The translations under genes were made by a program, and so were the position numbers. The notes under the pieces are model-generated. The model saw only the letters and a program-made list of their open reading frames with translations. It had not been told where the DNA came from and ran no database searches. Shown here piece by piece: positions 14,043-56,361 of a DNA stretch of 64,000 bases (positions are counted from its first letter, which is position 1; every line of letters begins with the position of its first letter). Location of the stretch: the NCBI GenBank assembly GCA_934232895.1, contig CAKQGH010000004.1, positions 21,979-85,978 on the forward strand, in the 5' to 3' direction. The stretch comes from an uncultured Alphaproteobacteria bacterium. Its GTDB lineage: Bacteria; Pseudomonadota; Alphaproteobacteria; Rs-D84.

Positions 14043-14119
14043 CGGGGCGTAGCTCAGTCTGGTAGAGTGCTTGCTTTGGGAGCAAGATGTCGAAGGTTCG
14101 AATCCTTTCGCCCCGACCA
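14043..14119 (+). tRNA. tRNA-Pro (anticodon TGG)
   Basis: CGGGGCGTAGCTCAGTCTGGTAGAGTGCTTGCTTTGGGAGCAAGATGTCGAAGGTTCGAATCCTTTCGCCCCGACCA. Clean cloverleaf, anticodon loop TTTGGGA, encoded CCA. Confidence 0.93.
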
Positions 14120-14168
14120 GAAATAAAAAACGGTGCTTTACGCACCATTTTTTATTTCTGGTTTGGGC

Positions 14169-14212
14169 GAAATACGGATTTGACACCTGAACATTACGCA
14201 GTAATGTTGGTT
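14169..14212 (+). repeat. Direct repeat R1 (~44 bp; partner at 14666-14710)
   Basis: GAAATACGGATTTGACACCTGAACATTACGCAGTAATGTTGGTTC versus AAAATACGGATTTGATACCTGAACATTACGCAATAAGGTTGGTTC. Confidence 0.8.
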
Positions 14213-14479
14213 CGACTACGAGTCAGCGAGCCCCCGGCGAGCGCAGTCCGCGCCCAGCGGACGCGAACGAGTGCCCCGCAGGCACGGCGCATTTATGCGC
14301 CAGCCGAGGGAATCTTTCGCCCTGCACCGATTCCGACAACCACTTTGGGTCGTTTTTTATTTTTTCCGCGGGACGCGGATTCGAACTTGGTTCTCATCTT
14401 TCCCTCGTTGTGGCACGCCACAACTGCGGGGCATTCGTGACGGTTTGGTCGCGCTATACGCGTCCGCACCTACTCATTG

Positions 14480-14491
14480 TCGCCCCGACCA
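14480..14491 (+). repeat. Duplicate of the tRNA-Pro 3' end (12 nt, att-like)
   Basis: TCGCCCCGACCA is identical to tRNA positions 14108-14119 and is followed by a palindromic hairpin, as after the genuine tRNA. Confidence 0.6.
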
Positions 14492-14651
14492 TGAATAAAA
14501 AATCGGTATCGTCAGATACCGTTTTTTTGTTCATCGATTGAGTGGTTGGATTCGAACCTTCGAGGAAGAAGGTTCGAACCGCAGGCACAAGGCAGACGGC
14601 AGTATGCCGGTTCGCGCCAGCGAATGTGCCCAGGTGGGCGCCAGCCAATCA

Positions 14652-15683: not shown

Positions 15684-18600
15684 TCAGAACCGATACGAAC
15701 CAGATATCTTGATGTTATGCAATTGGATATCCTGGTTATATTGATAGCGGTAATCCAAACCAACCTGAATTCCGGTTGCCGAAACAAATTCCACCCCGCC
15801 GCCGATATTTGCCCACATTGGGTCAATATTCAAATCATATTCGGTGAAACTGTCTGCCGCGGCAAATTTATATTTTGCCGTATCCGGCGCGCCCAGAACA
15901 TCGTATTCAATACCAATCGATGCATACGGGCGAATCTGGAACCACATTGACGGATAAATACGTTTTTGCGCCATCAATGAATATCCCGGCGTCAACATCA
16001 GGTATCCATCAGATTCCATTTTCATGTAATCATGACCGCCAACCTTTTCAGTGACGCTGAACCCGGTGTTATATCCCGCGCGCACATACATATTGCCAAC
16101 GATATACTGGTTCAACCAATCGTGCAACAGGCCCCATTCACTGGTCAAACTGAACGCGGAACCATTACCCGTGATTTCACCATCAACATACGTCTGGTTG
16201 CGAGAAACATCAAACAGGTGCAAATCCAAGAACGCAGTACCATACAAACGCGTTTTGTCGCCCAATATTTTCATCATGTATCCACCCATACCAATGTTCG
16301 TATCAGCAACCGATGTATCAATATGACCGGCAATGTAATCATTGGTCGCATTGTATGCCAAATCCAGCGCGCTGGCCGTATCGGTCGACATGTGCGACAC
16401 GCGCGCCGTCAAACCATATATAACCGTCTGGGAATGTTGCCAATCAAACCCGCCCGATACACTGAACCGATTACCATCGGCGTGCAAACCGTCGGTCGTT
16501 TTTTGGTACAACATACCAAAGTCCGTATCAACCCAGGCCTTTTTCAATTTGCGGTTGCGGTTCCATATAAATTCGTCGAACATACGGTCTTCGAATGAAC
16601 GCGCATTTGTGTGTTCATTCAACGCAACATTTCCGGCAATTTGTTCAATTTCGCGCGCCTGGAACAATTGGCTGAAACGTTCCAGCCCCGCGCCATTACG
16701 ATATTCATCATAGTTTTCCAACCGTTTGTACAATTCGTCGCCCATCGTGCCCAGCCCCGCGCCACGGAATATCAACGGCAACAATTCAATTGCCTGGGTG
16801 CCACTGAAACCGTTTTTCTGTTGCAGACCCGCAATCAAATTATCCAACGCACCCGCCGATACCGCGGCATCTGGGGAATAGCCCGGCACGCGTTCAACAA
16901 TAGGCTGAATTTTCGAAATCTTTATCGGACCACCAAAACGGTCATCAAATACGATATAAATATCGTTGCCATTTCGTACCGTCAAATATGCGCCGGCAAT
17001 GTCACTAGCATCGGCCAAATCCGCCGGATCAAAATATGTATAGCACATTGTGCCCGACGCATTGCAAATCGCAACACTCACATTGCGCAGTTTATCCAAA
17101 CCATCCAGTTCGCTGATGCCGCCATCGGCATGCGCCAACCATAACGCCTTGGATATATCGGGCAATTCGGTCAAACCAACGCCAATCAAACCGGTTCCAG
17201 ACGCCAGATTCGCCAGCGAAACTTGTGATTTGAATTCGCCCGTAATCTTGACCAGTGCCAGGTTTTCGACATTGTTCGAAATTTGACCGAATGTATTATC
17301 ATCGGCCAGGCTGATTGTTGACCAATGCAATGCACTGATTGGGCCACCCGCAACGACCAGACGACTGTTGTTATCAAATATATAATCGCCCCTAACGATC
17401 AAATCACCCAGGTTATTAAACCGCACACCGCCCGAAATATCACCAGTAATTTCAGCACTAATACTGTTGTAATCACGCGCCGAAATGGTCAGCAAATTGC
17501 CATTTGTTTCAATTGCGCCACGAACCTCCAAATTTGAAGTATTCAAATTCAGATTACCACCCGTTTGGTCAATTCCAGCAACACTTACGCTGTTGGCATT
17601 GATGGTGTAATCGTTCGCAATAATGTTTACATCGGTCCCGCGCACGGTTATATCGCCATTATAATTCTGGTACAAAATGCCCGCCTTGAAATCGCCATTT
17701 ACGGTAATTCCATTGCCACGCAATTCGGCATTACCCGCAACGATGTTCAGCCCCGACATAATAACACTGGCCGCGGTTGCGGTATTCGAATTCAATGTCA
17801 GCATCCCAGAATTCACCACAACATTACCCAAATCCGCGCCACTTGTCGCACTCAGCATCAAATTACCGGCATTCGTCACACCGCCCGCCGTGATTGATGA
17901 TGCATATAAACTGGTGGTTGCGCCCGACGCAACATTGATACCACCGTCAACCGTGGCATTTCCAGACAGAACATACCCGACCGAATTTGCGTTTGCGTTT
18001 AACGCACCCGACACGGTCAAATCGCCCGCCTGAACCATGGCAGTTGCATTGCTGCCAATAATATTAAATCCATTTGTCGTGGCACCGCTGGTCAACACAT
18101 GATTCAAATCGCCGGTGATTGTAATCGCATCGGTCACGGTGATATTATTCGCCGTTGTGTTTATTGCGCCGCCATTTACAGTAATTGAATGCGCATCAAC
18201 ATTTGGTGCGGTAATGTCCATTGCGCCATCATTTGCAACAATCGCGTTGGCGGTCACACTCGTTCCGGTGATTTTCAAAACGCCACTGTTGGTAATATTT
18301 CCAGTCGTCACCGATTCCGTATTTGCCCCGCCCAACACCATTGTTGCATTGGCGTTGTTTGTCACCGCACTGTCCGCCGCATCAATATGCGCCGCCGAAA
18401 TTTCAACCGTTGCGCCATTATAATTTATAATGTCGTCGCCCAGTTCCACATCCCCCGCCGCGGTAATGTCAATTTCACTGGTGCTGGATTCGGTTTCCAA
18501 TTTCCCCGTGATGTTTGCCGCGGCCGCGGATTTCAGTGTTAATTTTTTATCCTTGGTAATAATATCGCCACCAACCAAAATATCATCGGTTGTGGTGGTC

Positions 18601-20738
18601 AGTGTTAAATCATCGGTATCGGCAACCAATACACCGTTTGTACGATCCGGCGTGCCATCGGCCAATATGCCACCGGCCAAATCAACTTTGTCCGCCGTGA
18701 CCGACGCACCACGCAACACCAATGTGCCGGTTGCGTTGTTGGACAATGTGCCACCAATTACCGTTGTTCCCGCAGAAATATCAATGCGGCCACCATCTGT
18801 CACCGACAAATTGCCAGAAACATTAAATCTCTGGTCCCCGGCGGTTGCGACATCCGTCGCACCAAATTGCAAAACGCCCCGGCCCGACGCAAAAACATCG
18901 GCACCAACATCAATTTGCGCGGCATCAAAACGAATCGTGCGTGACAGCGCGGTGTCGCTTGCATGCACGCCACCACCAACCGAAATATTTTCGTCCGAAT
19001 GAATGGTCAACGCGCCCGTTTGCACATCAACCTTCAAATCGCCAACCTCCGCATCACCCGATGCGGCGTTTACATCACCCGCAATTATAATGGTATCTGA
19101 TACCGAGAATTTTTGTGTGGTTCCCCCAATGTTCAACGCACCATTTTCCCCAACCACAACCGTACCATTTGCACGGATTACACCATCCAGCGACGACAAC
19201 GACATATCCATATTGCCGCCATTTACCAGCATGGCACCATTGATTGTCATATTGTTGGTGGCATCGAATTTCATTTTCCCCGCATTGGTTGTCAATGCGC
19301 CAGTTGTTATATCATATCCCGAAACATTCATCTGGCCACTGTTATTTGTGACATTACCCAATAATTTGACAGTGTTAGAAACACCAGTACCACCAGTAAT
19401 TTGCAATAATTTCCCAGAGTTAACTACACCATCTGATATACTTACATTCGCCCCACTTAATGTAGTGTCTTGCCCTGCCGAGTTATTTACCGCCGATGCC
19501 GACAAAGTGCCACCGGCTGTAATATCTACCTTGCCGGTTGTACCGGACGTCGTTATCCCATCGGCAGTTATATCGCGGGCCGCCCCAATCGTCAATGTTC
19601 CGGCATTCATAACGGTACCCGTCTTGATATCAAGCGCGGACTGCAAGACCATATCCGAGCTGTTATCTATTAATGCCAATGTGATATTACCATTCGTGGC
19701 ATCTTTTGTTGTCAACTTGAATGTACCATTGGCATTATGCCACTCTAAATCCTGGGGCACACCAAAATCAATGGTTCCGGTTGACAAATCAAAACCGTTC
19801 GCGTTCGCAAAACTGATGCCATTTGCGAATTTCGTTGCGCCCGACACATAACCAGTAAACGTTCCACCGGTCAATGCCAACGACTTGTCTGCATCCAAGC
19901 CACCATTTACAGTTAAATTTTTGGCATTGATGGTCAGTGCGCCATTATCACTGGTGATGCGACCACCAGAAATAATATTGCCATTTGCCGCCGCCAAGTT
20001 TAATTCAGTCCCTGAATTTTTAACATCACCCGTGGTGTTGATATTACTGGCCATGATTGTCATTTTACCGGCCGCATTACCATTGCCAATTTCGCCCGCG
20101 GTAATCGTACCGTTTGTCGCCGTCACATCTGCGGTGCCCGTGCCACTATAATTCAACGCGGCGGTCACATCTATGTTGCCTGTCGATGTAATTGTTGCGG
20201 TTGCGCCACTTGCATCAATTGAATTCGCCTGAATACTATTTGCCGATAATGTTAAATCGGATGCCGCGGTCAACGCCCCATTCAATGTTAAACTGTTCAC
20301 ATTTGATATGCTCAGCGCGCCATTTGCGGTGATTGTGTTGGCGGTGCTGGTACCAATCACGACATCTATCGCCGCAACCGATGAGGCATTGTGAATTTGC
20401 AATTTATACCCAGATGCAATTTCCAAATCCCCAGCGATATTTAATTTGCCACCCGTTAAAATCGAAAATGGTGAATCAATTCCAATCAGCGCATACACAT
20501 TGCCATCTGTACCAGATGTCCCCGTGTTATCACGCCCAATATACATATTGCCCGCAACCGTCAGCGGCCCCGACGACGAAATACCATTACCATTCGTAAT
20601 TATAACATTTTCGCCCGCGGTACTGTTGCCCGGCAACCCCGACAAGTCGGCAGAATTACCCGTACCTGGTGTGAAATCGGCGGCGCCCGCACCAAACGGC
20701 ACCAGGCAGCACAAGAAAGAAACTAATTTTTTCATCAT
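15684..20738 (-). CDS. Large type V autotransporter (1684 aa) with a Gly/Thr/Asn/Ala-rich beta-helical passenger
   Basis: Signal peptide MMKKLVSFLCCLVPFGAGAA. About 1250 aa of degenerate GxxTxxG/NxxG repeats. C-terminal ~300-aa beta-barrel translocator ending ...LHNIKISGSYRF. Confidence 0.85.
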   Translation of the reverse strand: MMKKLVSFLCCLVPFGAGAADFTPGTGNSADLSGLPGNSTAGENVIITNGNGISSSGPLTVAGNMYIGRDNTGTSGTDGNVYALIGIDSPFSILTGGKLNIAGDLEIASGYKLQIHNASSVAAIDVVIGTSTANTITANGALSISNVNSLTLNGALTAASDLTLSANSIQANSIDASGATATITSTGNIDVTAALNYSGTGTADVTATNGTITAGEIGNGNAAGKMTIMASNINTTGDVKNSGTELNLAAANGNIISGGRITSDNGALTINAKNLTVNGGLDADKSLALTGGTFTGYVSGATKFANGISFANANGFDLSTGTIDFGVPQDLEWHNANGTFKLTTKDATNGNITLALIDNSSDMVLQSALDIKTGTVMNAGTLTIGAARDITADGITTSGTTGKVDITAGGTLSASAVNNSAGQDTTLSGANVSISDGVVNSGKLLQITGGTGVSNTVKLLGNVTNNSGQMNVSGYDITTGALTTNAGKMKFDATNNMTINGAMLVNGGNMDMSLSSLDGVIRANGTVVVGENGALNIGGTTQKFSVSDTIIIAGDVNAASGDAEVGDLKVDVQTGALTIHSDENISVGGGVHASDTALSRTIRFDAAQIDVGADVFASGRGVLQFGATDVATAGDQRFNVSGNLSVTDGGRIDISAGTTVIGGTLSNNATGTLVLRGASVTADKVDLAGGILADGTPDRTNGVLVADTDDLTLTTTTDDILVGGDIITKDKKLTLKSAAAANITGKLETESSTSEIDITAAGDVELGDDIINYNGATVEISAAHIDAADSAVTNNANATMVLGGANTESVTTGNITNSGVLKITGTSVTANAIVANDGAMDITAPNVDAHSITVNGGAINTTANNITVTDAITITGDLNHVLTSGATTNGFNIIGSNATAMVQAGDLTVSGALNANANSVGYVLSGNATVDGGINVASGATTSLYASSITAGGVTNAGNLMLSATSGADLGNVVVNSGMLTLNSNTATAASVIMSGLNIVAGNAELRGNGITVNGDFKAGILYQNYNGDITVRGTDVNIIANDYTINANSVSVAGIDQTGGNLNLNTSNLEVRGAIETNGNLLTISARDYNSISAEITGDISGGVRFNNLGDLIVRGDYIFDNNSRLVVAGGPISALHWSTISLADDNTFGQISNNVENLALVKITGEFKSQVSLANLASGTGLIGVGLTELPDISKALWLAHADGGISELDGLDKLRNVSVAICNASGTMCYTYFDPADLADASDIAGAYLTVRNGNDIYIVFDDRFGGPIKISKIQPIVERVPGYSPDAAVSAGALDNLIAGLQQKNGFSGTQAIELLPLIFRGAGLGTMGDELYKRLENYDEYRNGAGLERFSQLFQAREIEQIAGNVALNEHTNARSFEDRMFDEFIWNRNRKLKKAWVDTDFGMLYQKTTDGLHADGNRFSVSGGFDWQHSQTVIYGLTARVSHMSTDTASALDLAYNATNDYIAGHIDTSVADTNIGMGGYMMKILGDKTRLYGTAFLDLHLFDVSRNQTYVDGEITGNGSAFSLTSEWGLLHDWLNQYIVGNMYVRAGYNTGFSVTEKVGGHDYMKMESDGYLMLTPGYSLMAQKRIYPSMWFQIRPYASIGIEYDVLGAPDTAKYKFAAADSFTEYDLNIDPMWANIGGGVEFVSATGIQVGLDYRYQYNQDIQLHNIKISGSYRF

Positions 20739-27171: not shown

Positions 27172-27996
27172 TTATTTATCCAATGCCTTGATGATTTGTG
27201 CGTGTGGGATTGCGCCCGGGAACGCTTCTTCACCAATAATCAGGAACGGTGTGCCGCTGATTTCGAACTGTTGTGCCAAATCACGAACGTTCGCCAATTC
27301 ACGTGCGACAACCTCGCCCGACATATCTTGTTTCAACTGGGCTGTATCCAGACCAGCTTCTTCGGCCATTTTCAAAACATTCTTTTCGACCTTTTCGCCC
27401 AATTTGGACTGATCTTTCAAATCGTCCTGGGTATAGAAATTACGGGTCATCATCATGTCAACCAATTTGGCTGCTTTTTCTGGGCTCTGCAATTTTGCAG
27501 CAATAGCGGCCTTGGCTGGGGCATCAGATAATGCGCCATGAATCGAGAAGTTTTTGATAACAACGCGAACATCGTCACGATCAGCCAATACACGTTCCAA
27601 TTCGCCATGAACACGGCGGCAATATGGACAGCTGAAATCGGTCCAAACAAAGATTGTTTTCTTCGCGTCTGGTGCACCCAAAATCGGGGCATCTGCAATC
27701 ATCATATCCGAGTGTTCACGAACGAATGCACGAACGGCCTTGTTCTTTTCAGCATTCAATTGTTCCTGGGCACCGTTGGCCATTTCCTGGATAATCAGCG
27801 GATTTACCGATGTCAGGTAATATGGCACAAACAAGCGGCAAACGCTGCCTGCGACCAAGATGATGGCAATCAATTTAATAGATTTTTTTGCCAAGATGAT
27901 TCCTGTGCTGGGTTTCTTTGCATCATGTTTCAGCAGCATACCACCGAACATATACATGGCGATTCCCAAAACCAGGACCAATATTGTCCAAGTCAT
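27172..27996 (-). CDS. DsbA-family thiol:disulfide oxidoreductase, membrane-anchored
   Basis: Start at MTWTILVLVLGIAMYMF (GAAAGGAGAA RBS). Thioredoxin-fold active site WTDFSCPYCRR. The upstream extension of the ORF to 28329 overlaps recO and is rejected. Confidence 0.8.
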   Translation of the reverse strand: MTWTILVLVLGIAMYMFGGMLLKHDAKKPSTGIILAKKSIKLIAIILVAGSVCRLFVPYYLTSVNPLIIQEMANGAQEQLNAEKNKAVRAFVREHSDMMIADAPILGAPDAKKTIFVWTDFSCPYCRRVHGELERVLADRDDVRVVIKNFSIHGALSDAPAKAAIAAKLQSPEKAAKLVDMMMTRNFYTQDDLKDQSKLGEKVEKNVLKMAEEAGLDTAQLKQDMSGEVVARELANVRDLAQQFEISGTPFLIIGEEAFPGAIPHAQIIKALDK

Positions 27997-28090
27997 AGTT
28001 TTCTCCTTTCTGTTGAACACAAATACCATAATAAAAATTTGCAACCAGCGCAAGGAATAAATATGCAAAAAGTTATAAAAAATTTTGATT

Positions 28091-28747
28091 TTATTTATCG
28101 CCCAGCCGCCGCCGCGACAGCGGAATGTCCGCGCCCTGGGCCGTGCAAATATTTTCAATAAAATGCAGTGTCGTCGCCAATGTTGGTGGTAATTCGTACA
28201 GCCGCCCAATATACGGCGCGGCACAATTATCACACACCGCCCGCCCGGTGCGCGGCGACAAGAAATGTAAATTTTCACGCGAACCACAGCCCGAACAATG
28301 TGATAAATCCAGCGCATACCCCAATTCACGCAACAACACCATTTCCCAATTCAAATAGTTGCCATTATCATCGCCTGATGTTGCCAATTTTTTTATAAAT
28401 TCGATTGTTTCATTATACAGTTCCCGGTACTGTTCGCGTTCGGGCAGCAATACCGATATTAAATCAAAAGCACTGTTGAATAATGCTAATTTTTTTGCCG
28501 ACATCATTATCGGTGCGGTTGGATTTGTGGTTGCATCCCAATGGAACGCACCCAATTGCGAATCCAGACGCGCATTCCACGCCACATTGCCAATTTGTCC
28601 CACCAACGGTTTACGCCGTGTCATAATTTGCGCCGCCCGCATAGTGCCACACATAATACCAAAATCGCGGGTAAACACACGCGCCACAACATCGCGTTCA
28701 CCAAATGGTCGCATAGATATTAAAATGCCGGTTGATTCCAATTTCAT
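28091..28747 (-). CDS. recO: DNA repair protein RecO
   Basis: MKLESTGILISMRPFGERDVVARVFTRDFG OB-fold N-terminus. Zn-finger-like CSGCGS...CDNC in the C-terminal half. Confidence 0.85.
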   Translation of the reverse strand: MKLESTGILISMRPFGERDVVARVFTRDFGIMCGTMRAAQIMTRRKPLVGQIGNVAWNARLDSQLGAFHWDATTNPTAPIMMSAKKLALFNSAFDLISVLLPEREQYRELYNETIEFIKKLATSGDDNGNYLNWEMVLLRELGYALDLSHCSGCGSRENLHFLSPRTGRAVCDNCAAPYIGRLYELPPTLATTLHFIENICTAQGADIPLSRRRLGDK

Positions 28748-28815: not shown

Positions 28816-30132
28816 TTACATCGCCTGCATTTTGCTGACGGAGAAATCCAATTTCTTCGTCTTGCCCGAAACAACATTCATCGGCAATGCAATGTCTTTG
28901 AGAGCCTCCTCAATCGATGTCGTGCCACTGGCAACGCTGGTTCCCGTTGTGGTTGTGGTACCGGTGATTTTGGTCGTGGTCGATATGTCATCCGCCATCA
29001 CCTGGTCTGCAACCACCGCATCAGAAACCTGCATCTGTTGCTCAAGGGCTTTTTTTAATTCTTCATTGACCTCTGGTCTTGTGTACTTTTCTGCAAGGTT
29101 TGATGTTTGTTTCGTCTCGGTTTTGGTTTCTGTCGTATCTGGGACCATTTTGTTCAATGCCGTTAACATATTTTTTGCATTGGCCGCATCGTATGTGTTA
29201 TTGCATGCTTTCAAGACACTCTTTTGTATATTGGACAATGTATCGGGCGCCGTGCGATATATTTCCAGGCATTTTTTGAATTGAATATCCGACGAGCACC
29301 CATAACACTCATACATCATATCGCTTGAATATGTTTTTGTCGCTGATGTAATCTTTTGTGTGTCTTGCTTTTCAACACACCATTTTTTGTTTTTATCCCA
29401 AACCATATTATTCTTGCCACAATCCATACAGATTCCCGTTTTATCTGGACCTTGGGTTTCTGTTTCTGGGCAATATTCACACTTTTGTAAAAACGTATTG
29501 AAAATATAATCCGTCCCAGTGCATGTGACGCATTTGCCGTTGGCGTCCAATCCCTTGGTCAGCCCCGTGCAAGAATCATCGGATTTTGTTTCTTCCTTTG
29601 GTTTCTCGGGCTCTGTGGCTTGCTTTTTCGGTGTATCGTCTTTCTTTGCGGTGGTTTTTGGTGTTTCCTGTTTCACGGCGGTGCATTTGCCACCACTAAC
29701 AACCTGGCCACTGGGGCATGATGTTGGTACTGTGCAATCGCCCTCAACTGTACCGCATATTGTCACGGTCTCTGTATATTCACATGTGCCACCGCCAACG
29801 GATTTTGTCTTTTTCGTACTGCTTTTTTCCCAATTCTTGCCCTCTACAAACGTTCCTTGTTTGCCACCTTCGCCCTTTACACCATCACAGCACCAAAAGT
29901 GGCGGTTATTATGTTCAAAATCATCATGATGTGCCAATTCGTGCACGGTGTTTCTCTTTGCGGCTTTGTTGCCTTTACACGAGTGTATCTGATAACCGCA
30001 CAACCAATATTCGTCGTTGCCCTTGTCTTCAACCCAGCATTCACTCTGATACCCCGTATAGAAATCGGCCCAGACCGGGCATATAACCAATGCACAAATC
30101 ATAACCAGAAAAATTTTACGCAGCATATTCAT
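28816..30132 (-). CDS. Secreted CXXC-rich protein (VSP/furin-repeat-like Cys spacing), downstream of inverton 1
   Basis: Signal peptide MNMLRKIFLVMICALVICPVWA. Many Cys, including CVTC, CEYC, CMDC, CYGC and CPSGQVVSGGKC. Lys/Thr/Glu-rich linker. GGGGGA RBS. Confidence 0.7.
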   Translation of the reverse strand: MNMLRKIFLVMICALVICPVWADFYTGYQSECWVEDKGNDEYWLCGYQIHSCKGNKAAKRNTVHELAHHDDFEHNNRHFWCCDGVKGEGGKQGTFVEGKNWEKSSTKKTKSVGGGTCEYTETVTICGTVEGDCTVPTSCPSGQVVSGGKCTAVKQETPKTTAKKDDTPKKQATEPEKPKEETKSDDSCTGLTKGLDANGKCVTCTGTDYIFNTFLQKCEYCPETETQGPDKTGICMDCGKNNMVWDKNKKWCVEKQDTQKITSATKTYSSDMMYECYGCSSDIQFKKCLEIYRTAPDTLSNIQKSVLKACNNTYDAANAKNMLTALNKMVPDTTETKTETKQTSNLAEKYTRPEVNEELKKALEQQMQVSDAVVADQVMADDISTTTKITGTTTTTGTSVASGTTSIEEALKDIALPMNVVSGKTKKLDFSVSKMQAM

Positions 30133-30160
30133 TTCATCCCCCCTGTGGGCGCTATGTTCA

Positions 30161-30276
30161 TTGCCGAAAAAAACGGTGGTTTTTTGCGCAATAAATACCA
30201 CTTGACCTGATGGCGGATTTCTGGGTATAATTTCCGTATAAAAGTGCCGAAATTAAACCACCGTTTTTTTCGGCAC
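30161..30276. promoter_or_regulatory. Putative invertible promoter element 1 (promoter currently facing away from gene 28816..30132: OFF)
   Basis: Perfect 20-bp IR GCCGAAAAAAACGGTGGTTT (30163-30182) / AAACCACCGTTTTTTTCGGC (30255-30274). Interior promoter on the + strand: TTGACC (30202-30207), 18 nt, TATAAT (30226-30231). The interior is homologous to element 2 only when reverse-complemented. Confidence 0.6.
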
Positions 30277-30294
30277 TTCTTTTTTTGCGCCGCG

Positions 30295-30327
30295 CCCCGC
30301 CCACCGCGGCATTGCGGGGATTTTTTG
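30295..30327 (+). terminator. Hairpin plus T-run on the outer flank of inverton 1
   Basis: CCCCGC-CCACCGCGGCATT-GCGGGG-ATTTTTTG. Conserved at 56362-56392. Confidence 0.5.
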
Positions 30328-30329
30328 TG

Positions 30330-30860
30330 TTTTTTATTTGTCCCTGCGGGGCAATGGACCCCGACCTTCGTCGGGGTGACGGTCTTTTTTATTCTTAAAA
30401 CTTTATCACTCTATCACTGATGCGCTGCCGACACCCCGCCCTGCGTGCACCCCGACTTCCCAGAGGTGAACTTGACTTGCAACGAGAACGTAGCAAGTTC
30501 TCCTCCTGTGGAGGAGTACCGCGTAGCGGGGAGGTGGTCTTTTTATTTGTCCCTGCGGGGCAATAGATACCGGCCTACGCCGGTATGACGGAAGTTTTGT
30601 GGTTGATTACCAAATTTTACGAGTGTTGTTCGGCTGTAGGTGATTTATTATAGTCGTCACCCCGACACCCGGGTCCCACAAAATTGAAAATTTTGTGGGT
30701 GGTACCAGGCCGGGGGCCATTGCCCCGCAGGGACTTATTTACCACTACCCCGGCACTTCGTGCCACCCCTTCGCTTGGCGAAGGGGAATTTAGACCACAA
30801 CGGGAATGAAACAAGTGCGCCATCGGCGCGCTATCTATTCTCTATTATCTATTCTCTATG
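30330..30860. repeat. Repeat mosaic 2 (largest cluster of nested palindromic units)
   Basis: TTATTTGTCCCTGCGGGGCAATGGACCCCGACCTTCGTCGGGGTGAC, CCCACAAAATTGAAAATTTTGTGGG, CACCCCTTCGCTTGGCGAAGGGG and CTATCTATTCTCTATTATCTATTCTCTATGCTCT units all recur elsewhere in the window. Confidence 0.8.
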
Positions 30861-30892: not shown

Positions 30893-31957
30893 TTATTCCA
30901 TATTTGCCAATCGTTCCAATTGGTCGGCGGCAATCAAGGCGTCTATCATTTCATCCAATGCCACACCGCCCGCCAAAATATCATCCAATTTATACAGGGT
31001 CAATTTTATACGGTGATCGGTCACGCGTTGTTCTGGGAAATTATAGGTTCTGATTTTTTCACTGCGGTCGCCACTGCCCACCATGGTTTTACGGGCGGCG
31101 TTGCTGGCACCCTGCTGTTCGGCACGCTGCTTTTCATACAACTTGGAACGCAGAACCGCCATCGCCGCGGCCTTGTTCTGGAACTGGCTGCGCTCGTTCT
31201 GGCACGTAACGACAATCCCTGATGGAAAGTGCGTAATACGAATCGCACTGTCGGTTTTATTTACGTGCTGGCCACCCGCCCCAGACGCACGGAAAATATC
31301 AATACGAATATCCTTGTCATCAATTACAACGTCAATATCTTTGGCCTCGGGCATAACGGCGACAGACGCCGCACTGGTGTGAATACGACCGCCGGCCTCG
31401 GTTTCAGGCACACGTTGCACGCGATGAATTCCCGATTCGAATTTCATACGCGCATACGCCCCAACACCATCGATTTTGAATACAATTTCTTTGTACCCGC
31501 GCAGGGAGGTTGCGTTTTCTTCGATAACCTCGACCGTCCAGCCGTGACGCAACGCATACGATTTATATTGGTTATACAAATCACCCGCAAACAGTGCCGA
31601 TTCTTCACCGCCAACACCTGCGCGAATTTCCATAATAACACTGTTATCGTCGGCATCATCACGTGGCAGTAATGCGATTTGCAAACTCTTTTCAATTTCA
31701 GGCAAACGGTGATTTAATTCCGCCAACTGTTCCGCCGCAATCGCATGTAGTTCTGGATCGTGTTGCATTTCTGTTGCATCGGCAATGCCCGCGGTCGTTT
31801 GGAAATATTCGTTTATCAGCGGCAAAATCCCCGTCAGGCGCGAATACTCTTTGGACAATTTGGTCAATTCGTCCCCCGACACATTGCCCGAATTCATCTG
31901 GGCCTCTATTTCCGAGGCACGGGTTTGTATGTCTTTTAATTTTTGTTCTATAATCAT
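30893..31957 (-). CDS. prfA: Peptide chain release factor 1
   Basis: VQRVPETEAGGRIHTS (PxT tripeptide region) and SGAGGQHVNKTDSAIRITH (GGQ motif). Confidence 0.93.
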   Translation of the reverse strand: MIIEQKLKDIQTRASEIEAQMNSGNVSGDELTKLSKEYSRLTGILPLINEYFQTTAGIADATEMQHDPELHAIAAEQLAELNHRLPEIEKSLQIALLPRDDADDNSVIMEIRAGVGGEESALFAGDLYNQYKSYALRHGWTVEVIEENATSLRGYKEIVFKIDGVGAYARMKFESGIHRVQRVPETEAGGRIHTSAASVAVMPEAKDIDVVIDDKDIRIDIFRASGAGGQHVNKTDSAIRITHFPSGIVVTCQNERSQFQNKAAAMAVLRSKLYEKQRAEQQGASNAARKTMVGSGDRSEKIRTYNFPEQRVTDHRIKLTLYKLDDILAGGVALDEMIDALIAADQLERLANME

Positions 31958-40863: not shown

Positions 40864-42678
40864 ATGAAGTCAAGGAACGGATTCTTTGCAATTATTATTT
40901 GTTTGGCCATATTTTGCCGTACGGCGATGGCCGGCGATTGCAGCGATACAAAATACCGTGGAAACAATCCGATTGAATGCCAATTTTTCATTGATGGCGC
41001 AACATCATTTTTTGGCACGGCGGGACTGGTCGGCGGCGCATTGGCGCTGGTTGGCATATCTATGTCGGGCGGTGGCGACAATGGTACCGCGGGCCCGTCA
41101 CAACCTACATTGACCGTGCCCGCCTATGTCGGCGATGACATCAGTGCCGCAGAACTGGCCGGTGTTATGCAAAACGCATCGTACGCCCGCAATATGGACC
41201 AATATAATAATATCCGCCTGGCGTGGTCACTGGCGCGCGGATACACCGGGCGCGGCACAACAATCGCGGTACTAGACGCCGGGGCCGACACATGGCACGG
41301 GAAAACCGTGGCATCATTTGCGTCGGGCGCAATTGCCCCAGACGTCAATGTTGTGCAATATAAAATCGTTGATGAAAATATGAAATTTTTATCATACCGC
41401 GAAATAGGCAACGCAATTGCCAGCGCAACGGAGGCAAATGTATATAATTCCAGTTGGGCCGTGTCAATGTCCGCAACCAGCTTAACATCGCGCGCGCAAC
41501 TGGAACGCGTGACCGACAAACATTTTGTTGATGAAATATCCGCCGCCGCGCGCACGCGCGACGCCATATTTGTGTGGGCGGCCGGGAACGATGGGCTGTC
41601 CCAATCCAGTGCCCTGTCCGCCATGCCCCGCGTTATTCCCGAATTAAATGGCCATTTTGTAAATGTTGTTGCGTTTGACGATGCAACGGGGGCGCTGGCC
41701 GATTACAGCAACGCATGCGGCATCACGCGTGATTGGTGCATAACCGCGCCGGGGTCACTGCACACCGATTACACGACGGCCCATGGCACCAGTTTTGCCG
41801 CCCCGGTTGTATCGGCGGCAATCGCCGTTTTGCGCCAGGCATTTCCATATATGACCGCATCACAAATAACATCACTGTTGTTCGAAACCGCGCGCGATCT
41901 GGGGGCACCCGGGGTTGACGATGTATATGGTCACGGTATGTTGGATTTGGAACGCGCAACCCGCCCCGTTGGCGCCGCATTGGTACCAATTGGCGGCACA
42001 ATGCAACCGTTGGCCGTGGCACGCGTATCGGGGCAAATTGCACATAATATAAAATCCGCCAATCCGCAATTTGCATTCTTTGATGAATACGGCCGCGCAT
42101 TTTCAGCGGACATATCCGAAAATATCACCATTCAAAACCAGTCCCAGGCGTGGCGGCATCTGCACGGAAATGACGACATTGTGGCCACGGCCGCGGGCAA
42201 TTTTGAATTTGGGTTCCGCGACATGGATTTTTTACCGGCCGACGGCCTGTTCGGCATTGGCGATAAAAATTTCATCAGTTTTGTATCCACCGCCCGCCAA
42301 TGGAAATTGGACAACATAACATTATTTCAAACGGCATCGGTTGGTATGGGCCGCCCACATACGAACGACAATTCGATGATTACCGATATTTCCGGAATAA
42401 CAACCGCATCGGCGGCAATTGGCGCACGCGGCCGCGATTGGCAATTTGCACTGCGCATACCAGACACAATTATTTCCGGCAATATGACCATGCACACCCC
42501 GGTTGGTCGCATGGCAGACGGCGCCATTGTGTACAATGATTATACCATAGATTTATCGGCCACCCGTCCGTCGGTTGAATTCACCGCCAAATATAAATTT
42601 TTAACCGCCGGATTTGTTGATAACCCATACGGCACCGATGAATTATTCGTTGTCGGCCGTTGGAACATACGATTCTAG
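40864..42678 (+). CDS. S8 (subtilisin-like) serine peptidase, secreted, with a beta-rich C-terminal domain ending in Phe
   Basis: Signal peptide MKSRNGFFAIIICLAIFCRTAMA. Catalytic D (IAVLDAGAD), H (WHGKTVASF), S (HGTSFAAPVVSAA). C-terminus ...LFVVGRWNIRF suggests an autotransporter or OMP-like anchor. Confidence 0.8.
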   Translation: MKSRNGFFAIIICLAIFCRTAMAGDCSDTKYRGNNPIECQFFIDGATSFFGTAGLVGGALALVGISMSGGGDNGTAGPSQPTLTVPAYVGDDISAAELAGVMQNASYARNMDQYNNIRLAWSLARGYTGRGTTIAVLDAGADTWHGKTVASFASGAIAPDVNVVQYKIVDENMKFLSYREIGNAIASATEANVYNSSWAVSMSATSLTSRAQLERVTDKHFVDEISAAARTRDAIFVWAAGNDGLSQSSALSAMPRVIPELNGHFVNVVAFDDATGALADYSNACGITRDWCITAPGSLHTDYTTAHGTSFAAPVVSAAIAVLRQAFPYMTASQITSLLFETARDLGAPGVDDVYGHGMLDLERATRPVGAALVPIGGTMQPLAVARVSGQIAHNIKSANPQFAFFDEYGRAFSADISENITIQNQSQAWRHLHGNDDIVATAAGNFEFGFRDMDFLPADGLFGIGDKNFISFVSTARQWKLDNITLFQTASVGMGRPHTNDNSMITDISGITTASAAIGARGRDWQFALRIPDTIISGNMTMHTPVGRMADGAIVYNDYTIDLSATRPSVEFTAKYKFLTAGFVDNPYGTDELFVVGRWNIRF

Positions 42679-43284
42679 GTATTCGGCATGCAACCGGTGC
42701 CGTATTTTCAAAAACCGATTTAATGTATCGCGATGCACGCCCAGGCGCCGTGCAATTTTTGATTTGGCGCGCCCGTCACACAATTTTTGCAATATATATT
42801 CCTCGCGGCTTATCAGTTTTGACATACTTTTACTGCCCGTGGGGCGCCCAATGCGCCCACCCTGGGACCGCACACGGGCCAACGCCTCTTTGGTGCGCTG
42901 GGATATTAAATTTCGTTCGATTTCCGCAGACAACCCAAATGCAAAAGCCAAAACCTTGCTGGTAATATCCGAGCCCAATCGATAATTATCTTTGATTGTC
43001 CAAATTTTTGCGCCAACATCCATACAGTGATGCAAAATACTCATTACCTGCAACAAATTTCGGCCCAAACGCGACAATTCCGATGCTATTATCATATCGT
43101 CTTTGCGCAATTGTTGCAGCAATCGCCCCAGTTTACGTTTTGATAATTCCTTGGTTGATGAAATTGTTTCTTCTATCCAGCAATCTATGATTAAATCCTG
43201 TTTTTTACAAAATCGCTCTATTTCAAAATGTTGATTTTCTGTTGTCTGGTGATCGGTGGAAACGCGAACATACCCGTATATCAC
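42643..43284 (-). CDS. Serine site-specific recombinase (resolvase/invertase family, Hin/Gin-like size)
   Basis: MIYGYVRVSTDHQTTENQ holds the catalytic Ser. SRLGRN and ERNLISQRTKEALA are present. C-terminal HTH (GRAKSKIARRLGVHRDTLNRFLK). AAGGAG RBS. The last 36 nt overlap the 3' end of the convergent S8 gene. Confidence 0.85.
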   Translation of the reverse strand: MIYGYVRVSTDHQTTENQHFEIERFCKKQDLIIDCWIEETISSTKELSKRKLGRLLQQLRKDDMIIASELSRLGRNLLQVMSILHHCMDVGAKIWTIKDNYRLGSDITSKVLAFAFGLSAEIERNLISQRTKEALARVRSQGGRIGRPTGSKSMSKLISREEYILQKLCDGRAKSKIARRLGVHRDTLNRFLKIRHRLHAEYLESYVPTADNE

Positions 43285-50200: not shown

Positions 50201-50596
50201 ACAAAAAATTACCCAGATGGTCAAAAATTAACCTGCACGAATGGCGAATATGTATACGTGGTCGTCACAGACAGGACGCCGGACGGAGGCAACACACAGG
50301 CATACTTTTATAGTGGCCGGTATCTGTCCCCAACTTACACCATGGATCAAGACGGAAAAAACACTACCAACCACAGCGTTGGTACAAGCCCAGCACAGTC
50401 TTACAAAGCATCCTCGACACAGCAATGTAACTTGACTTACCCCAAAGGAACAGATCTTGATCTTGGTAAAATTGTCGCAGAATGGAACGCCCCGCAAACA
50501 TCGACCGACGAAGGTGTATCATCACAAGACACCACAGGGTGCACCGCCGGTAAAAAAGACATGCCGTGGCGTTGGATCATTGGCAAAAAAGAATAA
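47225..50596 (+). CDS. Large secreted protein (1123 aa): Thr/Arg/Ser/Ala-rich disordered N-region, conserved Cys-motif domain, Cys-rich C-terminal half
   Basis: Signal peptide MKGFRLIFALFLGLWAFQPARA. ~190-aa low-complexity tract. CREVYYNCMDEFCANKDSQLKRCACSSRV motif shared with 12924..13946. Numerous Cys later (CMKC, CRDTSCPPGQQLHDGVCVD...). Confidence 0.75.
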   Translation: MKGFRLIFALFLGLWAFQPARAADSDDTARAATRRGASSVVAAARGNSTATAPQSTTGTSRITNATNNKSTTTNSNQTVRGRGTATTTTTRGTNVVADTSRTATTRKTVSTRTTSGTQTRGAASTNVISAPSRAAIVRGTIGAPKATTSVSQSSGAASRASVSRAATTTAARASTTSSARRTTGASSRVARAATTTNTVDSVINSNYKKCREVYYNCMDEFCANKDSQLKRCACSSRVNEFDSTKKRLANVEEKMLDFNQRLLTVNMDKEDAAALNQATEGETAFLQKDTSKSKQMLDDISKKLNASFNDTNFNQSMTSISLSLDTDSAFDTVDSLQAASTTAKTGMALYSAALPICREMATEVCSDDELSLAESGYQMVIEQDCNAVQKSYQTQVDQARDKVREGSALLDMSRLDVYQERNSDDILTCKEKMLTMLTDSTVCGDGLGKCLDTTGQYIDPSTGEALLSDKLVNLANLIVRPSADQEWTSVPANQVFVTYLNSKKTFLAPAMENCQDIADAVWDAFIEDALAQIKLAQTKKLEDVRQSCTTLTTQCLTDTTKTIQDFDARALSTFGVLADKTVNEMCASIKNACTAVLNYSVTGDAETDSEWTAGMNDIATDKTYDTLMQTCREVGRACIIQACKSVSGNFGLCEDIQTSVNRKSIINRTACWDEVQKCIEQTGDASIKAIFARKSDPNPNETKTKTDTVFANQQEGYKFYSKLYNNLDETETCSADTTDNNGSPAECGVYDLCRISCKNSDSTECMKCRLTERIWGNCEFSPEASLSQSYSHNYIKTSFRNSDDETLLSWFAKNTNTNNNPESCRDTSCPPGQQLHDGVCVDKSTLTDDDVFCPPEKFWQINIKTEGTDKHTDGIITNCCNVDDTNAGQKDVFGNCCLDNIIDGLPGGDDTTDNSKTSFFLRGTSDKSMTFGEKSSGTRVTTLDSKKTPHGLCLPSTSRLVAKYQKANDNAYVYVICTSGAPNPSDGPNTTTTKNYPDGQKLTCTNGEYVYVVVTDRTPDGGNTQAYFYSGRYLSPTYTMDQDGKNTTNHSVGTSPAQSYKASSTQQCNLTYPKGTDLDLGKIVAEWNAPQTSTDEGVSSQDTTGCTAGKKDMPWRWIIGKKE

Positions 50597-55200: not shown

Positions 55201-56211
55201 CTATTTCCACGCCGCCGGAATATCCGCATAGTCCGACAACCCGGTTGCACCGCTATACATACCACCAACTTGTGCTGTTGTTGCATACGGGAATACATTA
55301 TAAAGTGGTGTCCCATCTGGGTTTCGCGCCGATGGTCCGGTCAGTCCACTGCATCCAGCAAATGTGTAGGCAAACATACCGTAAGCGGAGGGACCAGATA
55401 TGCCCGCAAATAGCCCCGCGGGGATTTCACCGGTCAAACCACTGCAATCATAAAATGTGTAACTATACATATTATCCGCTGGGACGCCTTCATCAATGCC
55501 AGCAAATAAATCTGCGGGGATTTGACCCGTCAGATTTCCGCACCCATAAAATGTATGAACGAAAATCGGCATACTTGTGCCAACATTCGGAAATATCCGT
55601 CCCAGGCTACCGGAAATGCCTGCCAAGTTCTGATTCTTATCAAATGCTATTACAGGACTATCAAAATTGCTACCATACCCCGTTGCGCGGCCACCAATAC
55701 GGATGTCGTATGCGCCGGCGGTGGCGTATGTGTGGCTGATGGTCTGGTCACCTGTCGCGGGTTTTATTACTTTCTGCATCGCCGTGCCATCACCCCAGTT
55801 TATATAGAAAGAACCTGCCGCGCTGATACTAAAACTGAACGTTGTGGTGTCCGATGTTGTGGTTGCCGTAAAGTGGTATTTCGGTTTTATCAATGTGCGT
55901 ACGGCCTTGATACTGGTGTTCACATTTGCCGCAAAACCCGTCGCATATTCACTGTGCTGGTAATCGGTTTTGGTGCCAACCTTGCTGTTTGCGGCATCTA
56001 TCACCGCAAACAAGTATCGCATATTTGCCGGTGCCGACGGACGTCCGGACACAATTGGAATGTTTATTCCCCATTCGTGTTCAATCAGATTATGGACATA
56101 CCGCAGGTTTACCATTGGCGACATACCGGGCGCGTCTGCACCGTGTGCCGCACCAAACACCAGTGTAAATGTGCACATCACCGACAGTAATATTCTGCGT
56201 AATTTGGTCAT
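55201..56211 (-). CDS. Secreted BspA-type (DUF285-like) leucine-rich-repeat surface protein, downstream of inverton 2
   Basis: Signal peptide MTKLRRILLSVMCTFTLVFGAAHG. Repeats FYGCGNLTGQIPADLFAGI / FYDCSGLTGEIPAGLFAGI / FAGCSGLTG. The ORF-track extension to 56505 runs through the promoter switch and is rejected. Confidence 0.7.
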   Translation of the reverse strand: MTKLRRILLSVMCTFTLVFGAAHGADAPGMSPMVNLRYVHNLIEHEWGINIPIVSGRPSAPANMRYLFAVIDAANSKVGTKTDYQHSEYATGFAANVNTSIKAVRTLIKPKYHFTATTTSDTTTFSFSISAAGSFYINWGDGTAMQKVIKPATGDQTISHTYATAGAYDIRIGGRATGYGSNFDSPVIAFDKNQNLAGISGSLGRIFPNVGTSMPIFVHTFYGCGNLTGQIPADLFAGIDEGVPADNMYSYTFYDCSGLTGEIPAGLFAGISGPSAYGMFAYTFAGCSGLTGPSARNPDGTPLYNVFPYATTAQVGGMYSGATGLSDYADIPAAWK

Positions 56212-56230
56212 TCCCCATTTCCCCCACATT

Positions 56231-56341
56231 GCGCAAAAAACGGTGGTTTTTTGCGGCATATTTTTATTGTGTAATAATAGCCGTTTTCTGCGGTTTCTGT
56301 CAACCGGATAACGCATAATAAAAACCACCGTTTTTTTCGGC
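56231..56341. promoter_or_regulatory. Putative invertible promoter element 2 (promoter currently facing gene 55201..56211: ON)
   Basis: 17-bp IR AAAAAACGGTGGTTTTT (56235-56251) / AAAAACCACCGTTTTTT (56320-56336). Interior promoter on the minus strand: TTGACA (comp. 56298-56303), 18 nt, TATTAT (comp. 56274-56279). The outer flank is near-identical to that of element 1. Confidence 0.6.
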
Positions 56342-56361
56342 ACTTCTTTTTTGGCGCCGCG

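What the first reader, a model, noticed from the sequence alone, without database searches (positions are those of the whole stretch)
30161..30330. Invertible-promoter switch in the OFF orientation upstream of the CXXC-rich protein gene
- Inverted repeat: a perfect 20-bp IR (GCCGAAAAAAACGGTGGTTT at 30163-30182 and its exact reverse complement at 30255-30274) brackets a 72-bp segment.
- Promoter: the segment contains a near-consensus promoter, TTGACC-18-TATAAT, on the + strand.
- Orientation: the promoter points away from the only adjacent gene (28816..30132 on the minus strand, ATG 30 bp outside the left IR). It fires into a hairpin plus T-run (30295-30327) and repeat DNA. No + strand gene follows before prfA, which is itself on the minus strand.
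- Site architecture: each IR site is itself a dyad, GC(C/G)G-A-tract / CGGTGG / T-tract-CGGC-like. These are symmetric arms around an asymmetric core, as in hix/gix crossover sites of serine invertases.
- Paralog comparison: the interior aligns with that of the paralogous element at 56252-56319 only after reverse-complementing it, while the flanks align directly. The two copies are therefore caught in opposite switch states.
Basis: partly seen in the sequence, partly recalled or inferred. Interest (0 to 1): 0.85.

Follow-up and report, generated by a model that had tools for sequence, protein, structure and literature searches.

The report
Flippable promoter switch, currently off
This is a real, very small (84 bp) flippable promoter of the kind gut Bacteroides use to vary their surface, found here in an uncultured gut alphaproteobacterium and sitting in the OFF direction upstream of a secreted cysteine-rich protein gene.

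Summary
A perfect 21-bp inverted repeat (30162-30182 / 30255-30275) brackets a TTGACC-18-TATAAT promoter. The promoter points away from the only adjacent gene (28816..30132, minus strand) and into two tandem terminators.

The repeat arms are the outer parts of two 30-bp dyad sites: TGCCGAA-A-rich-AAAC(G/C) half-sites around a central GT. These sites occur in the window only as two promoter-bracketing pairs (locus A here, locus B at 56229-56342).

The same architecture recurs in related gut Alphaproteobacteria assemblies:
- The core-to-core distance is always 84-86 bp.
- The promoter sits at a fixed offset with an 18-nt spacer.
- The neighbours are mostly genes for proteins with signal-peptide-like N-termini.

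At one sister locus the 103-bp element is 100% identical but inverted between collinear flanks in different metagenomes. At orthologues of locus B the interiors match at 87% only after reverse-complementing.

The window's sole recognisable recombinase (42643..43284) scores above NCBIfam's cutoff for the "master DNA invertase Mpi family". A 76%-identical homologue lies 2.1 kb from a switch in another contig.

Locus A itself was OFF in all five assemblies examined, so flipping at this locus is inferred, not seen.

Verdict: a new member of a known kind (Mpi-type invertible promoters), notable for its extreme compactness.

The parts
30162..30191 (+). Gene-proximal recombination site (site L): TGCCGAAAAAAACG-GT-GGTTTTTTGCGCAA, two 14-bp half-sites around the central GT (30176-30177). 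Its outer 21 bp form the left IR arm (30162-30182).
30246..30275 (-). Distal recombination site (site R), read on the minus strand: TGCCGAAAAAAACG-GT-GGTTTAATTTCGGC. The central dinucleotide is AC on the + strand (30260-30261). Its outer 21 bp form the right IR arm (30255-30275).
30176..30261 (.). Predicted invertible segment, from crossover dinucleotide to crossover dinucleotide. The core-to-core distance is 84 bp, and 84-86 bp in all family members.
   Evidence: The crossover position is inferred from the dyad axis and is consistent with the flipped sister loci.
30202..30231 (+). Sigma-70-type promoter TTGACC-18-TATAAT inside the segment, pointing away from the gene (OFF). The predicted transcription start is near 30238.
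   Evidence: The position and the 18-nt spacer are the same in all family members.
30242..30288 (+). Terminator 1, met by the OFF-state transcript: the dyad of site R folds as an 11-bp hairpin (GUGCCGAAA...UUUCGGCAC) followed by UUCUUUUUUU.
30290..30335 (+). Terminator 2: a G+C-rich hairpin plus T-runs. It is part of a flank of about 130 bp that is nearly identical at locus B.
28816..30132 (-). Target gene. It encodes a 438-aa cysteine-rich protein with a signal-peptide-like N-terminus and no Pfam or NCBIfam match. It is fast-evolving between strains (63-78% identity). A GGGGGGA ribosome-binding site lies at 30137-30143.
42643..43284 (-). Candidate invertase: a 213-aa serine recombinase of the Mpi master-invertase family, about 12.4 kb from switch A and 13 kb from switch B.
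56229..56342 (.). Paralogous switch B. Its sites lie at 56229-56258 and 56313-56342. The promoter TTGACA-18-TATTAT (56303-56274) is on the minus strand and points at the gene (ON).
55201..56211 (-). Target gene of switch B: a 336-aa repeat protein with a signal-peptide-like N-terminus. It belongs to a family of at least 392 proteins; the few named by a source are from Alphaproteobacteria MAGs or unclassified bacteria.

Best explanation
Region 30162-30275 is an invertible promoter (inverton) of the Mpi type, caught in the OFF orientation.

The sites. Two 30-bp recombination sites lie in inverted orientation. Each is an imperfect dyad of 14-bp half-sites, TGCCGAA-(A/T-rich)-AAAC(G/C), around a central non-palindromic GT.

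The reaction (inferred):
- Dimers of the Mpi-family serine invertase encoded at 42643..43284 bind each site and synapse.
- They cut at the central GT/AC dinucleotide, rotate and religate.
- This inverts an 84-bp segment that carries one TTGACC-18-TATAAT promoter.

OFF state (as sequenced). Transcripts start near 30238 on the + strand. They run straight into a terminator made of the site-R hairpin plus a flanking U-run, backed up by a second terminator. The gene 28816..30132 has no promoter facing it from the switch.

ON state (modelled). After inversion the promoter faces the gene. The predicted start is near 30199 on the minus strand, giving a leader of about 67 nt. The site hairpin then lies in the leader without a U-run, so transcription should read through to the ribosome-binding site and to the gene for the signal-peptide-bearing, cysteine-rich protein.

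A second copy (switch B, 56229-56342) is ON. Together they look like part of a small regulon of phase-variable, presumably secreted or surface proteins, set by one trans-acting invertase.

Shown here:
- the sequence anatomy;
- conservation of the architecture across species;
- natural inversion at sister and orthologous loci;
- family membership of the recombinase.

Inferred:
- this recombinase acts on these sites;
- the crossover is at GT;
- the promoter and terminators function;
- locus A itself flips.
For: - IR significance.
- Promoter and terminators.
- Only four sites in the window, always bracketing a promoter.
- Ten family members share half-site consensus, invariant CGGTGG and 84-86 bp spacing, and a promoter at offset 21-23 with an 18-nt spacer.
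- Identical element inverted between collinear flanks in independent metagenome contigs: L022/26/27 against L029/31/32.
- Orthologues of locus B in opposite states: interiors 87% identical after reverse-complementing against 55% directly.
- Sites at locus A are identical in all five assemblies and the interior shows only a few substitutions, although the downstream protein has diverged to 63-78% identity. This implies selection on a promoter that is useless unless it can flip.
- The recombinase is NF009949 'master DNA invertase Mpi family', 299.9 bits against a cutoff of 272.
- Its sequence is identical in 22 contigs read, in a fixed chromosomal context in the five places shown.
- A 76%-identical homologue lies 2.1 kb from a switch in L034.
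- No tyrosine recombinase among 38 window ORFs scanned.
- Most neighbouring genes begin with a signal-peptide-like N-terminus, judged by eye; the L025 gene does not.
- Precedent: B. fragilis Mpi inverts 13 dispersed regions (PMC4747536). A B. fragilis invertible promoter was OFF in all three sequenced genomes (PMC3090145).
Against: - Locus A was OFF in all five assemblies that carry it (the window, L006, L035, L036 and the paralogous L037). No flipped copy of this particular locus was seen, and raw reads could not be examined.
- The pairing of recombinase and sites rests on co-occurrence and analogy. The rest of the genome is unseen and could encode another recombinase.
- An 84-bp segment leaves only about 54 bp of DNA between the two 30-bp sites. 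That is very tight for a serine-recombinase synapse. From memory, it is shorter than classical switches such as fimS (314 bp) or the Mpi targets (about 170-190 bp).
- Promoter and terminator activity are consensus matches and folds only.
Confidence: 0.8

Rival explanations
1. Locus A is a decayed or effectively locked-OFF copy. The family is invertible, but this copy no longer flips, or flips so rarely that the gene is in practice silent or is transcribed from elsewhere.
For: All five assemblies with this locus are OFF. Natural locking does seem to occur in the family: in L042/L043 the distal site of locus B carries GT->AT in the core plus two other changes, and the promoter is fixed in the ON direction.
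Against: - Both sites of locus A are perfect and identical in every strain, including the central GT.
- The promoter is intact at 11 of 12 positions.
- Consensus assemblies report only the majority orientation. A mostly-OFF phase-variable promoter looks exactly like this, as for the B. fragilis large-capsule promoter, which was OFF in three genomes (PMC3090145).
Confidence: 0.1
2. The switch is real, but a different recombinase encoded outside the window inverts it (for example a tyrosine recombinase). The Mpi-family gene at 42643..43284 serves other targets.
For: Only 64 kb of the genome is visible. The recombinase is 12-13 kb from both switches, and no site lies next to it.
Against: - The site layout is that of serine-recombinase crossover sites: two ~14-bp half-sites with an A-tract next to a central 2-bp non-palindromic core.
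- The Mpi family is defined by action on dispersed promoters (PMC4747536).
- A homologue lies 2.1 kb from a switch in L034.
- No tyrosine recombinase was found in the window.
Confidence: 0.07
3. This is not a switch. It is either a fixed outward promoter making a short RNA flanked by palindromic terminator or REP-like hairpins, or a miniature transposable element with terminal inverted repeats that inserted in either orientation.
For: The region is full of REP/MITE-like repeats. Each site folds as a hairpin, and the OFF transcript would be a terminated RNA of about 45 nt.
Against: - The same locus carries an identical element in both orientations with unchanged junctions.
- There is no target-site duplication.
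- The sites are found only as promoter-bracketing pairs.
- The pairs sit 8-42 bp from start codons of unrelated genes, apart from L010, where the likely start is about 165 bp away.
- No Rfam family matches.
Confidence: 0.03

Closest known systems
Bacteroides fragilis Mpi (FinA / Ssr2) master DNA invertase and its invertible promoters (capsular polysaccharide loci and other 'fin' regions)
   Same: - A serine recombinase of the same NCBIfam equivalog family.
- One chromosomal, unlinked invertase.
- Several dispersed short IR-flanked promoter segments upstream of genes for surface or secreted products.
- A human-gut organism.
- hix-like sites: per the title of Patrick et al. 2003 (cited in PMC3090145), the B. 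fragilis repeats resemble the hin repeats.
   Different: - The host is an uncultured alphaproteobacterium, not Bacteroidota.
- The promoter is the TTGACA/TATAAT type, not TAnnTTTG.
- The site core is CGGTGG. The Bacteroides consensus I recall, ARACGTWCGT, comes from memory and could not be verified in the library.
- The segment is only 84-86 bp, against about 170-190 bp (from memory).
- The targets are single protein genes rather than polysaccharide operons.
- A terminator is built into the OFF side.
Hin/Gin/Cin/Pin enhancer-dependent DNA invertases with hix/gix sites
   Same: - A small serine recombinase with a C-terminal HTH and a GR-x-GRP arm. The best solved-structure match is a chain deposited as 'DNA-invertase', which I take to be phage Mu Gin.
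- The crossover site is a dyad of ~12-14-bp half-sites with an A-tract abutting a central 2-bp non-palindromic core.
   Different: - The recombinase gene is neither inside nor next to the invertible segment.
- The segment is 84 bp rather than about 1-4 kb.
- Several targets rather than one.
- No enhancer was identified.
- Only about 30% identity over the catalytic domain.
Mycoplasma penetrans mpl (P35 family) invertible promoters (from memory)
   Same: Many surface-protein genes each have their own very short IR-flanked invertible promoter, giving combinatorial ON/OFF variation.
   Different: Those are reported to use tyrosine recombinases, with segments of about 135 bp and 12-bp IRs. This comparison was not tested here.
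E. coli fimS / FimB-FimE switch
   Same: A promoter on an IR-flanked invertible segment gives ON/OFF control of a surface structure.
   Different: fimS uses tyrosine recombinases encoded next to the switch, 9-bp IRs and a 314-bp segment, and depends on IHF and Lrp. None of these features is seen here.

Membership tests
Mpi-type master-invertase promoter inversion system | Serine recombinase belonging to the Mpi family | tested here: met
   NCBIfam NF009949 (equivalog): 299.9 bits against a cutoff of 272, positions 1-197 of 213. PF00239 Resolvase, E = 7e-32. The nearest clusters that carry a source name are called 'master DNA invertase Mpi family', mostly from Alphaproteobacteria MAGs.
Mpi-type master-invertase promoter inversion system | Several dispersed promoter-containing segments flanked by IRs that share one consensus | tested here: met
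   Two switches lie 26 kb apart in the window. Two were found in MAG CAKQNS. Ten family members share one half-site consensus.
Mpi-type master-invertase promoter inversion system | Both orientations occur in natural populations | tested here: met
   Met for the family: L022/26/27 against L029/31/32 and L009 against L042. Not met for locus A itself, which is OFF in 5 of 5 assemblies.
Mpi-type master-invertase promoter inversion system | Inversion depends on the recombinase (a deletion locks the promoters) | not testable with these tools
   This needs genetics or a heterologous assay. Only co-occurrence is available.
Hin/Gin-type enhancer-dependent invertase system | Recombinase gene within or adjacent to the invertible segment, with a Fis-bound enhancer in cis | tested here: not met
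   The recombinase lies 12.4 kb and 13 kb from the two switches, and no site lies near it. The enhancer and Fis could not be tested.
Hin/Gin-type enhancer-dependent invertase system | Crossover sites with dyad half-sites around a 2-bp core | tested here: met
   14-bp half-sites, dyad axis on GT, invariant CGGTGG. Cleavage at GT is inferred, not shown.
Tyrosine-recombinase promoter switch (fimS-like) | Tyrosine recombinase gene(s) next to the switch | tested here: not met
   No Phage_integrase-type hit among 38 window ORFs scanned in Pfam. Genes outside the window are unseen.
MITE / REP-type dispersed repeat | Many copies regardless of context, target-site duplications, no required cargo | tested here: not met
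   Only two copies in 64 kb, both bracketing a promoter just upstream of a start codon. No direct repeat at the junctions. Inversion occurs in place.

The most novel reading that the evidence does not exclude
These may be the most compact serine-invertase switches described. The crossover-to-crossover distance is held at 84-86 bp (about 8 helical turns) in every member, leaving only about 54 bp between two 30-bp sites. Synapsis would then need a sharply bent loop or an unusual enhancer-free geometry. The system would be a lineage-wide Mpi regulon in uncultured gut Alphaproteobacteria, and it would include:
- simple ON/OFF switches with a terminator built into the OFF side;
- a two-gene toggle between divergent paralogues;
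- naturally locked alleles.
Probability: 0.3. Interest if true: 0.65.

Novelty: new member of a known kind. Interest (0 to 1): 0.5.

Why it matters
It extends master-invertase phase variation, best known from gut Bacteroides, to an abundant but uncultured gut alphaproteobacterial lineage. It also names concrete targets: genes whose products mostly carry signal-peptide-like N-termini (so probably secreted or surface proteins), the locus A product evolving fast between strains.

It gives a precise site model (a 30-bp dyad with a GT core) and a candidate enzyme, both testable in E. coli without culturing the host.

The fixed spacing of about 84 bp poses a clean mechanistic question about how short a DNA segment a serine invertase can flip.

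There are two practical consequences:
- Gene callers mis-extend ORFs through the switch (P0133 and P0253).
- Metagenome comparisons of these loci need orientation-aware mapping.

Tried and rejected
Comparisons that did not discriminate:
- A direct comparison of the interiors of A and B by identity gave 55% against 56%. I replaced it with comparisons to orthologous and sister loci.

Look-ups that gave little:
- Exact-protein look-ups of the 438-aa and 336-aa products found nothing, because the gene callers chose other start codons.
- The prfA and EF-Ts look-ups gave few extra strains. One contig (L039) ends in the REP-like repeats before the switch.
- The S21 look-up was far too broad (6771 blocks, many genera) and gave only one distant member, L017.

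Observations I did not use as evidence:
- Contig ends inside or next to the switch (L037, L044) were considered as evidence of population heterogeneity. I rejected this because the switch and its flank are repeated in the genome, which alone breaks assemblies.
- Four hits of the metagenome pattern scan (L021, L023, L024, L030) lack the half-sites and the promoter and were set aside as unrelated.

Literature:
- Papers on the Mpi site consensus and on inverton size ranges (Coyne 2003, Johnson 2015, Jiang 2019, Trzilova 2021) are not held. The string ARACGTWCGT is not in the library. Size and consensus comparisons with Bacteroides therefore rest on memory.
- No paper linking 'master DNA invertase' with Alphaproteobacteria was found.

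RNA families:
- Rfam finds nothing in the switch.

Full report
**1. What is in the sequence**

Bases 30162-30182 (TGCCGAAAAAAACGGTGGTTT) and 30255-30275 are perfectly complementary, with 72 nt between them. This is the longest perfect inverted repeat with a 20-150 nt gap in the whole 64-kb window. Thirty shuffles never exceeded 13 bp.

Inside lies TTGACC (30202-30207), an 18-nt spacer, then TATAAT (30226-30231) on the + strand, matching 11 of 12 consensus positions.

The only adjacent gene is 28816..30132 on the minus strand.
- Its ATG lies 30 bp outside the left arm, with a GGGGGGA ribosome-binding site at 30137-30143.
- It encodes a 438-aa cysteine-rich protein with a signal-peptide-like N-terminus and no Pfam or NCBIfam match.

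The promoter therefore points away from the gene. Downstream on the + strand there is no gene before prfA (30893..31957, minus strand), only terminators and REP-like repeats.

A second copy lies at 56229-56342, upstream of 55201..56211 (minus strand). There the promoter (TTGACA-18-TATTAT, 56303-56274) is on the minus strand, so it faces the gene.

**2. Anatomy of the sites**

I aligned the four half-sites of ten switches on the centre of the repeat. The ten were window A and B plus L008, L009, L010, L017, L022, L025, L034 and L036.
- All 40 half-sites fit TGCCGAA-(A/T-rich)-AAAC.
- Outer halves always end in CG and inner halves in CC.
- CGGTGG is invariant.
- The dyad axis falls in the middle of GT.

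Each arm of the IR is thus the outer part of a 30-bp imperfect palindrome around a non-palindromic 2-bp centre. This is the layout of crossover sites of serine recombinases (established knowledge of hix, gix and res site I). The centre-to-centre distance is 84 bp at A and B, and 84-86 bp in every member.

A weight-matrix scan finds only these four sites in the window and none in 20 shuffles. In 283 kb of related loci the sites occur as convergent pairs. The exceptions are:
- two loci whose partner site is mutated (L042, L043);
- one pair cut by a contig end (L037);
- one weak stray match in an unrelated contig (L030).

The repeat is therefore not a generic dispersed palindrome.

**3. Who carries it**

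The recombinase, prfA and EF-Ts of the window are found in human-gut metagenome assemblies, including Hadza samples. An exact-pattern scan of species-representative genomes hit only two MAGs labelled uncultured Alphaproteobacteria.

**4. Do members of the family invert?**

A metagenome scan for the two site cores returned 14 loci. Four are unrelated sequences (L021, L023, L024, L030). Six of the others represent one locus lying between two divergent genes. These genes encode 160-168-aa paralogues with signal-peptide-like N-termini.
- In L022, L026 and L027 the promoter faces the right-hand gene.
- In L029, L031 and L032 it faces the left-hand gene.
- The flanks are collinear, and the 103-bp element is 100% identical in reverse orientation.

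That is in-place inversion, here acting as a toggle between two genes.

Orthologues of the window's locus B behave the same way. L009 carries the promoter antisense to the gene and L042/L043 carry it sense. The interiors are 87% identical after reverse-complementing against 55% directly, with collinear flanks.

The interior of locus A is homologous to these: 72-87% identity to L010, L009 and L042 in promoter sense. Relative to the gene-proximal and terminator-side flanks, locus A is in the L009 (OFF) arrangement.

Across the distinct loci, by the direction of the best promoter match relative to the neighbouring gene:
- OFF: A, L009, L010, L017 and the L025 group.
- ON: window B, L008, L034 and L042/43.
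- Both states: the L022 group.

**5. Locus A itself**

Five assemblies carry this locus or a close paralogue: the window, L006, L035, L036 and L037. The encoded proteins are 63-100% identical. All five have the promoter antisense to the gene. In all five both sites are identical, and the interior shows only a few substitutions.

So flipping at this locus was not observed. On the other hand, the switch is conserved while the coding sequence drifts to 63-78% identity, which is hard to explain unless the promoter is used. A mostly-OFF phase-variable promoter looks like this in consensus assemblies. A B. fragilis invertible promoter was OFF in all three sequenced genomes (PMC3090145).

**6. The enzyme**

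ORF 42643..43284 (minus strand, 213 aa) has these properties:
- It has a Resolvase catalytic domain plus a C-terminal HTH.
- Its best solved relative is a chain deposited as 'DNA-invertase', which I take to be phage Mu Gin (4m6f).
- It matches NCBIfam NF009949, 'master DNA invertase Mpi family serine-type recombinase', over its full length at 299.9 bits against a cutoff of 272.
- Its sequence is identical in 22 contigs read (out of 44 index blocks). In the five places shown it sits in the same chromosomal context, between a DUF3078 protein gene and an S8 peptidase gene.
- In the one contig checked for both (ERZ26858507 NODE_63), the recombinase is 100% identical while the locus A protein is only 78% identical.
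- More than 100 clusters at 71-83% identity exist. Those that carry a source name are called Mpi family, mostly from Alphaproteobacteria MAGs.
- In contig L034 a 76%-identical homologue lies 2.1 kb from a switch.

No tyrosine recombinase was detected among the 38 window ORFs scanned.

In B. fragilis, Mpi inverts 13 dispersed regions, seven of them capsule promoters (PMC4747536). Its repeats were described as similar to the hin repeats (title of Patrick et al. 2003, cited in PMC3090145).

**7. How the switch probably works**

Steps shown here:
- the site anatomy;
- the promoter position, always 21-23 nt from one site with an 18-nt spacer;
- inversion in nature within the family.

Steps inferred:
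- Invertase dimers bind both sites and exchange strands at GT/AC, reversing 84 bp.
- In the sequenced OFF state, a transcript from near 30238 folds the site-R dyad into an 11-bp hairpin followed by UUCUUUUUUU. It then meets a second hairpin plus U-run (tandem terminators).
- This terminator-side flank is nearly identical at A and B and recognisable in L009, L010 and L036.
- In the modelled ON state the same hairpin lies in a leader of about 67 nt, followed by AAUGAACAU with no U-run. Transcription should then continue into the gene.

In L042/L043 the distal site has GT->AT in the core plus two other changes, while the proximal site is intact. Mismatched cores are known to block serine-recombinase inversion, so this looks like a natural locked-ON allele. 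That reading is an inference.

**8. Rivals**

- Locked or decayed copy at locus A: probability 0.10.
- Another recombinase does the job: 0.07.
- Not a switch at all (small-RNA promoter, REP or MITE): 0.03.

The in-place inversions, the absence of target duplications, the strict pairing of sites with promoters, and the recurrent position just upstream of start codons argue against the last rival. No Rfam family matches the region.

**9. Comparison and novelty**

Functionally, and by recombinase family, this is an Mpi-type system, so it is a new member of a known kind. It differs from the Bacteroides system in several ways:
- host lineage;
- sigma-70-type promoter;
- the CGGTGG core;
- single protein genes as targets;
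- the built-in OFF-side terminator;
- above all, size.

Eighty-four bp is shorter than the classical switches I can recall (fimS 314 bp, Mpi targets about 170-190 bp, M. penetrans about 135 bp). Those figures are from memory, because the relevant papers were not available. I found no paper describing Mpi-type switches in Alphaproteobacteria, although NCBI's pipeline already names the recombinase.

**10. Verdict**

I put 0.8 confidence on locus A being a functional Mpi-type invertible promoter in the OFF state. Interest is 0.5: it is a clean, testable new example with an unusually compact geometry, not a new principle.

Noticed in passing
L042 1381-1470 and L043 (orthologues of window locus B): The distal recombination site is mutated to GCCGAACAAAACGATGGGTTTT (core GT->AT plus two other changes). 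The proximal site is intact and the promoter is sense to the gene. This is a candidate natural locked-ON allele, seen in two independent samples.
   Followed up: partly
L022 4522-4636 against L029 1304-1418 (also L026, L027, L031, L032): One switch lies between two divergent paralogous genes for 160-168-aa proteins with signal-peptide-like N-termini, and it occurs in both orientations. It is a single-promoter toggle rather than an ON/OFF switch. L031 2859-3013 is 99% the reverse complement of L022 3046-3200, so the toggle lies within a larger inverted duplication.
   Followed up: partly
window 56211-56379 (proteins P0133 and P0253): Public gene calls extend the locus B ORF 35-56 codons upstream, through the switch (371 and 392 aa against 336 aa). 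The annotated N-terminus therefore depends on the switch orientation and is probably wrong.
   Followed up: yes
window 30340-30734, 56407-56567, 9555-9729, 56653-56829: There are two families of REP/MITE-like palindromic repeats: GTCCCTGCGGGGCAATGG... and TTGTCATTCCTGCGTAGGCAGGAATAGG. They occur as inverted pairs in intergenic DNA, including directly beside both switches. One contig (L039) ends inside these repeats.
   Followed up: no
window 14043-14563 and 4909-5060: tRNA-Pro (14043-14119) and tRNA-Arg (4909-4985) are each followed by an inverted partial copy of their own 3' end (14523-14563 and 5043-5060). The meaning is unknown.
   Followed up: no
window 42643-42678: The 3' end of the recombinase gene (minus strand) overlaps the 3' end of the convergent S8 peptidase gene (40864..42678, + strand) by 36 bp. 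The arrangement is the same in the five metagenome loci shown (L001-L005).
   Followed up: no
window 15684-20738 (-) and 47225-50596 (+): Two very large ORFs (1684 and 1123 aa) have no Pfam match. Neither has a switch of this family upstream.
   Followed up: no
window 27172-28317 (-): A DsbA-like thioredoxin-fold protein gene lies two genes downstream of the switch-controlled gene for the cysteine-rich protein, with RecO between them. A functional link (disulfide formation) is possible but was not tested.
   Followed up: no
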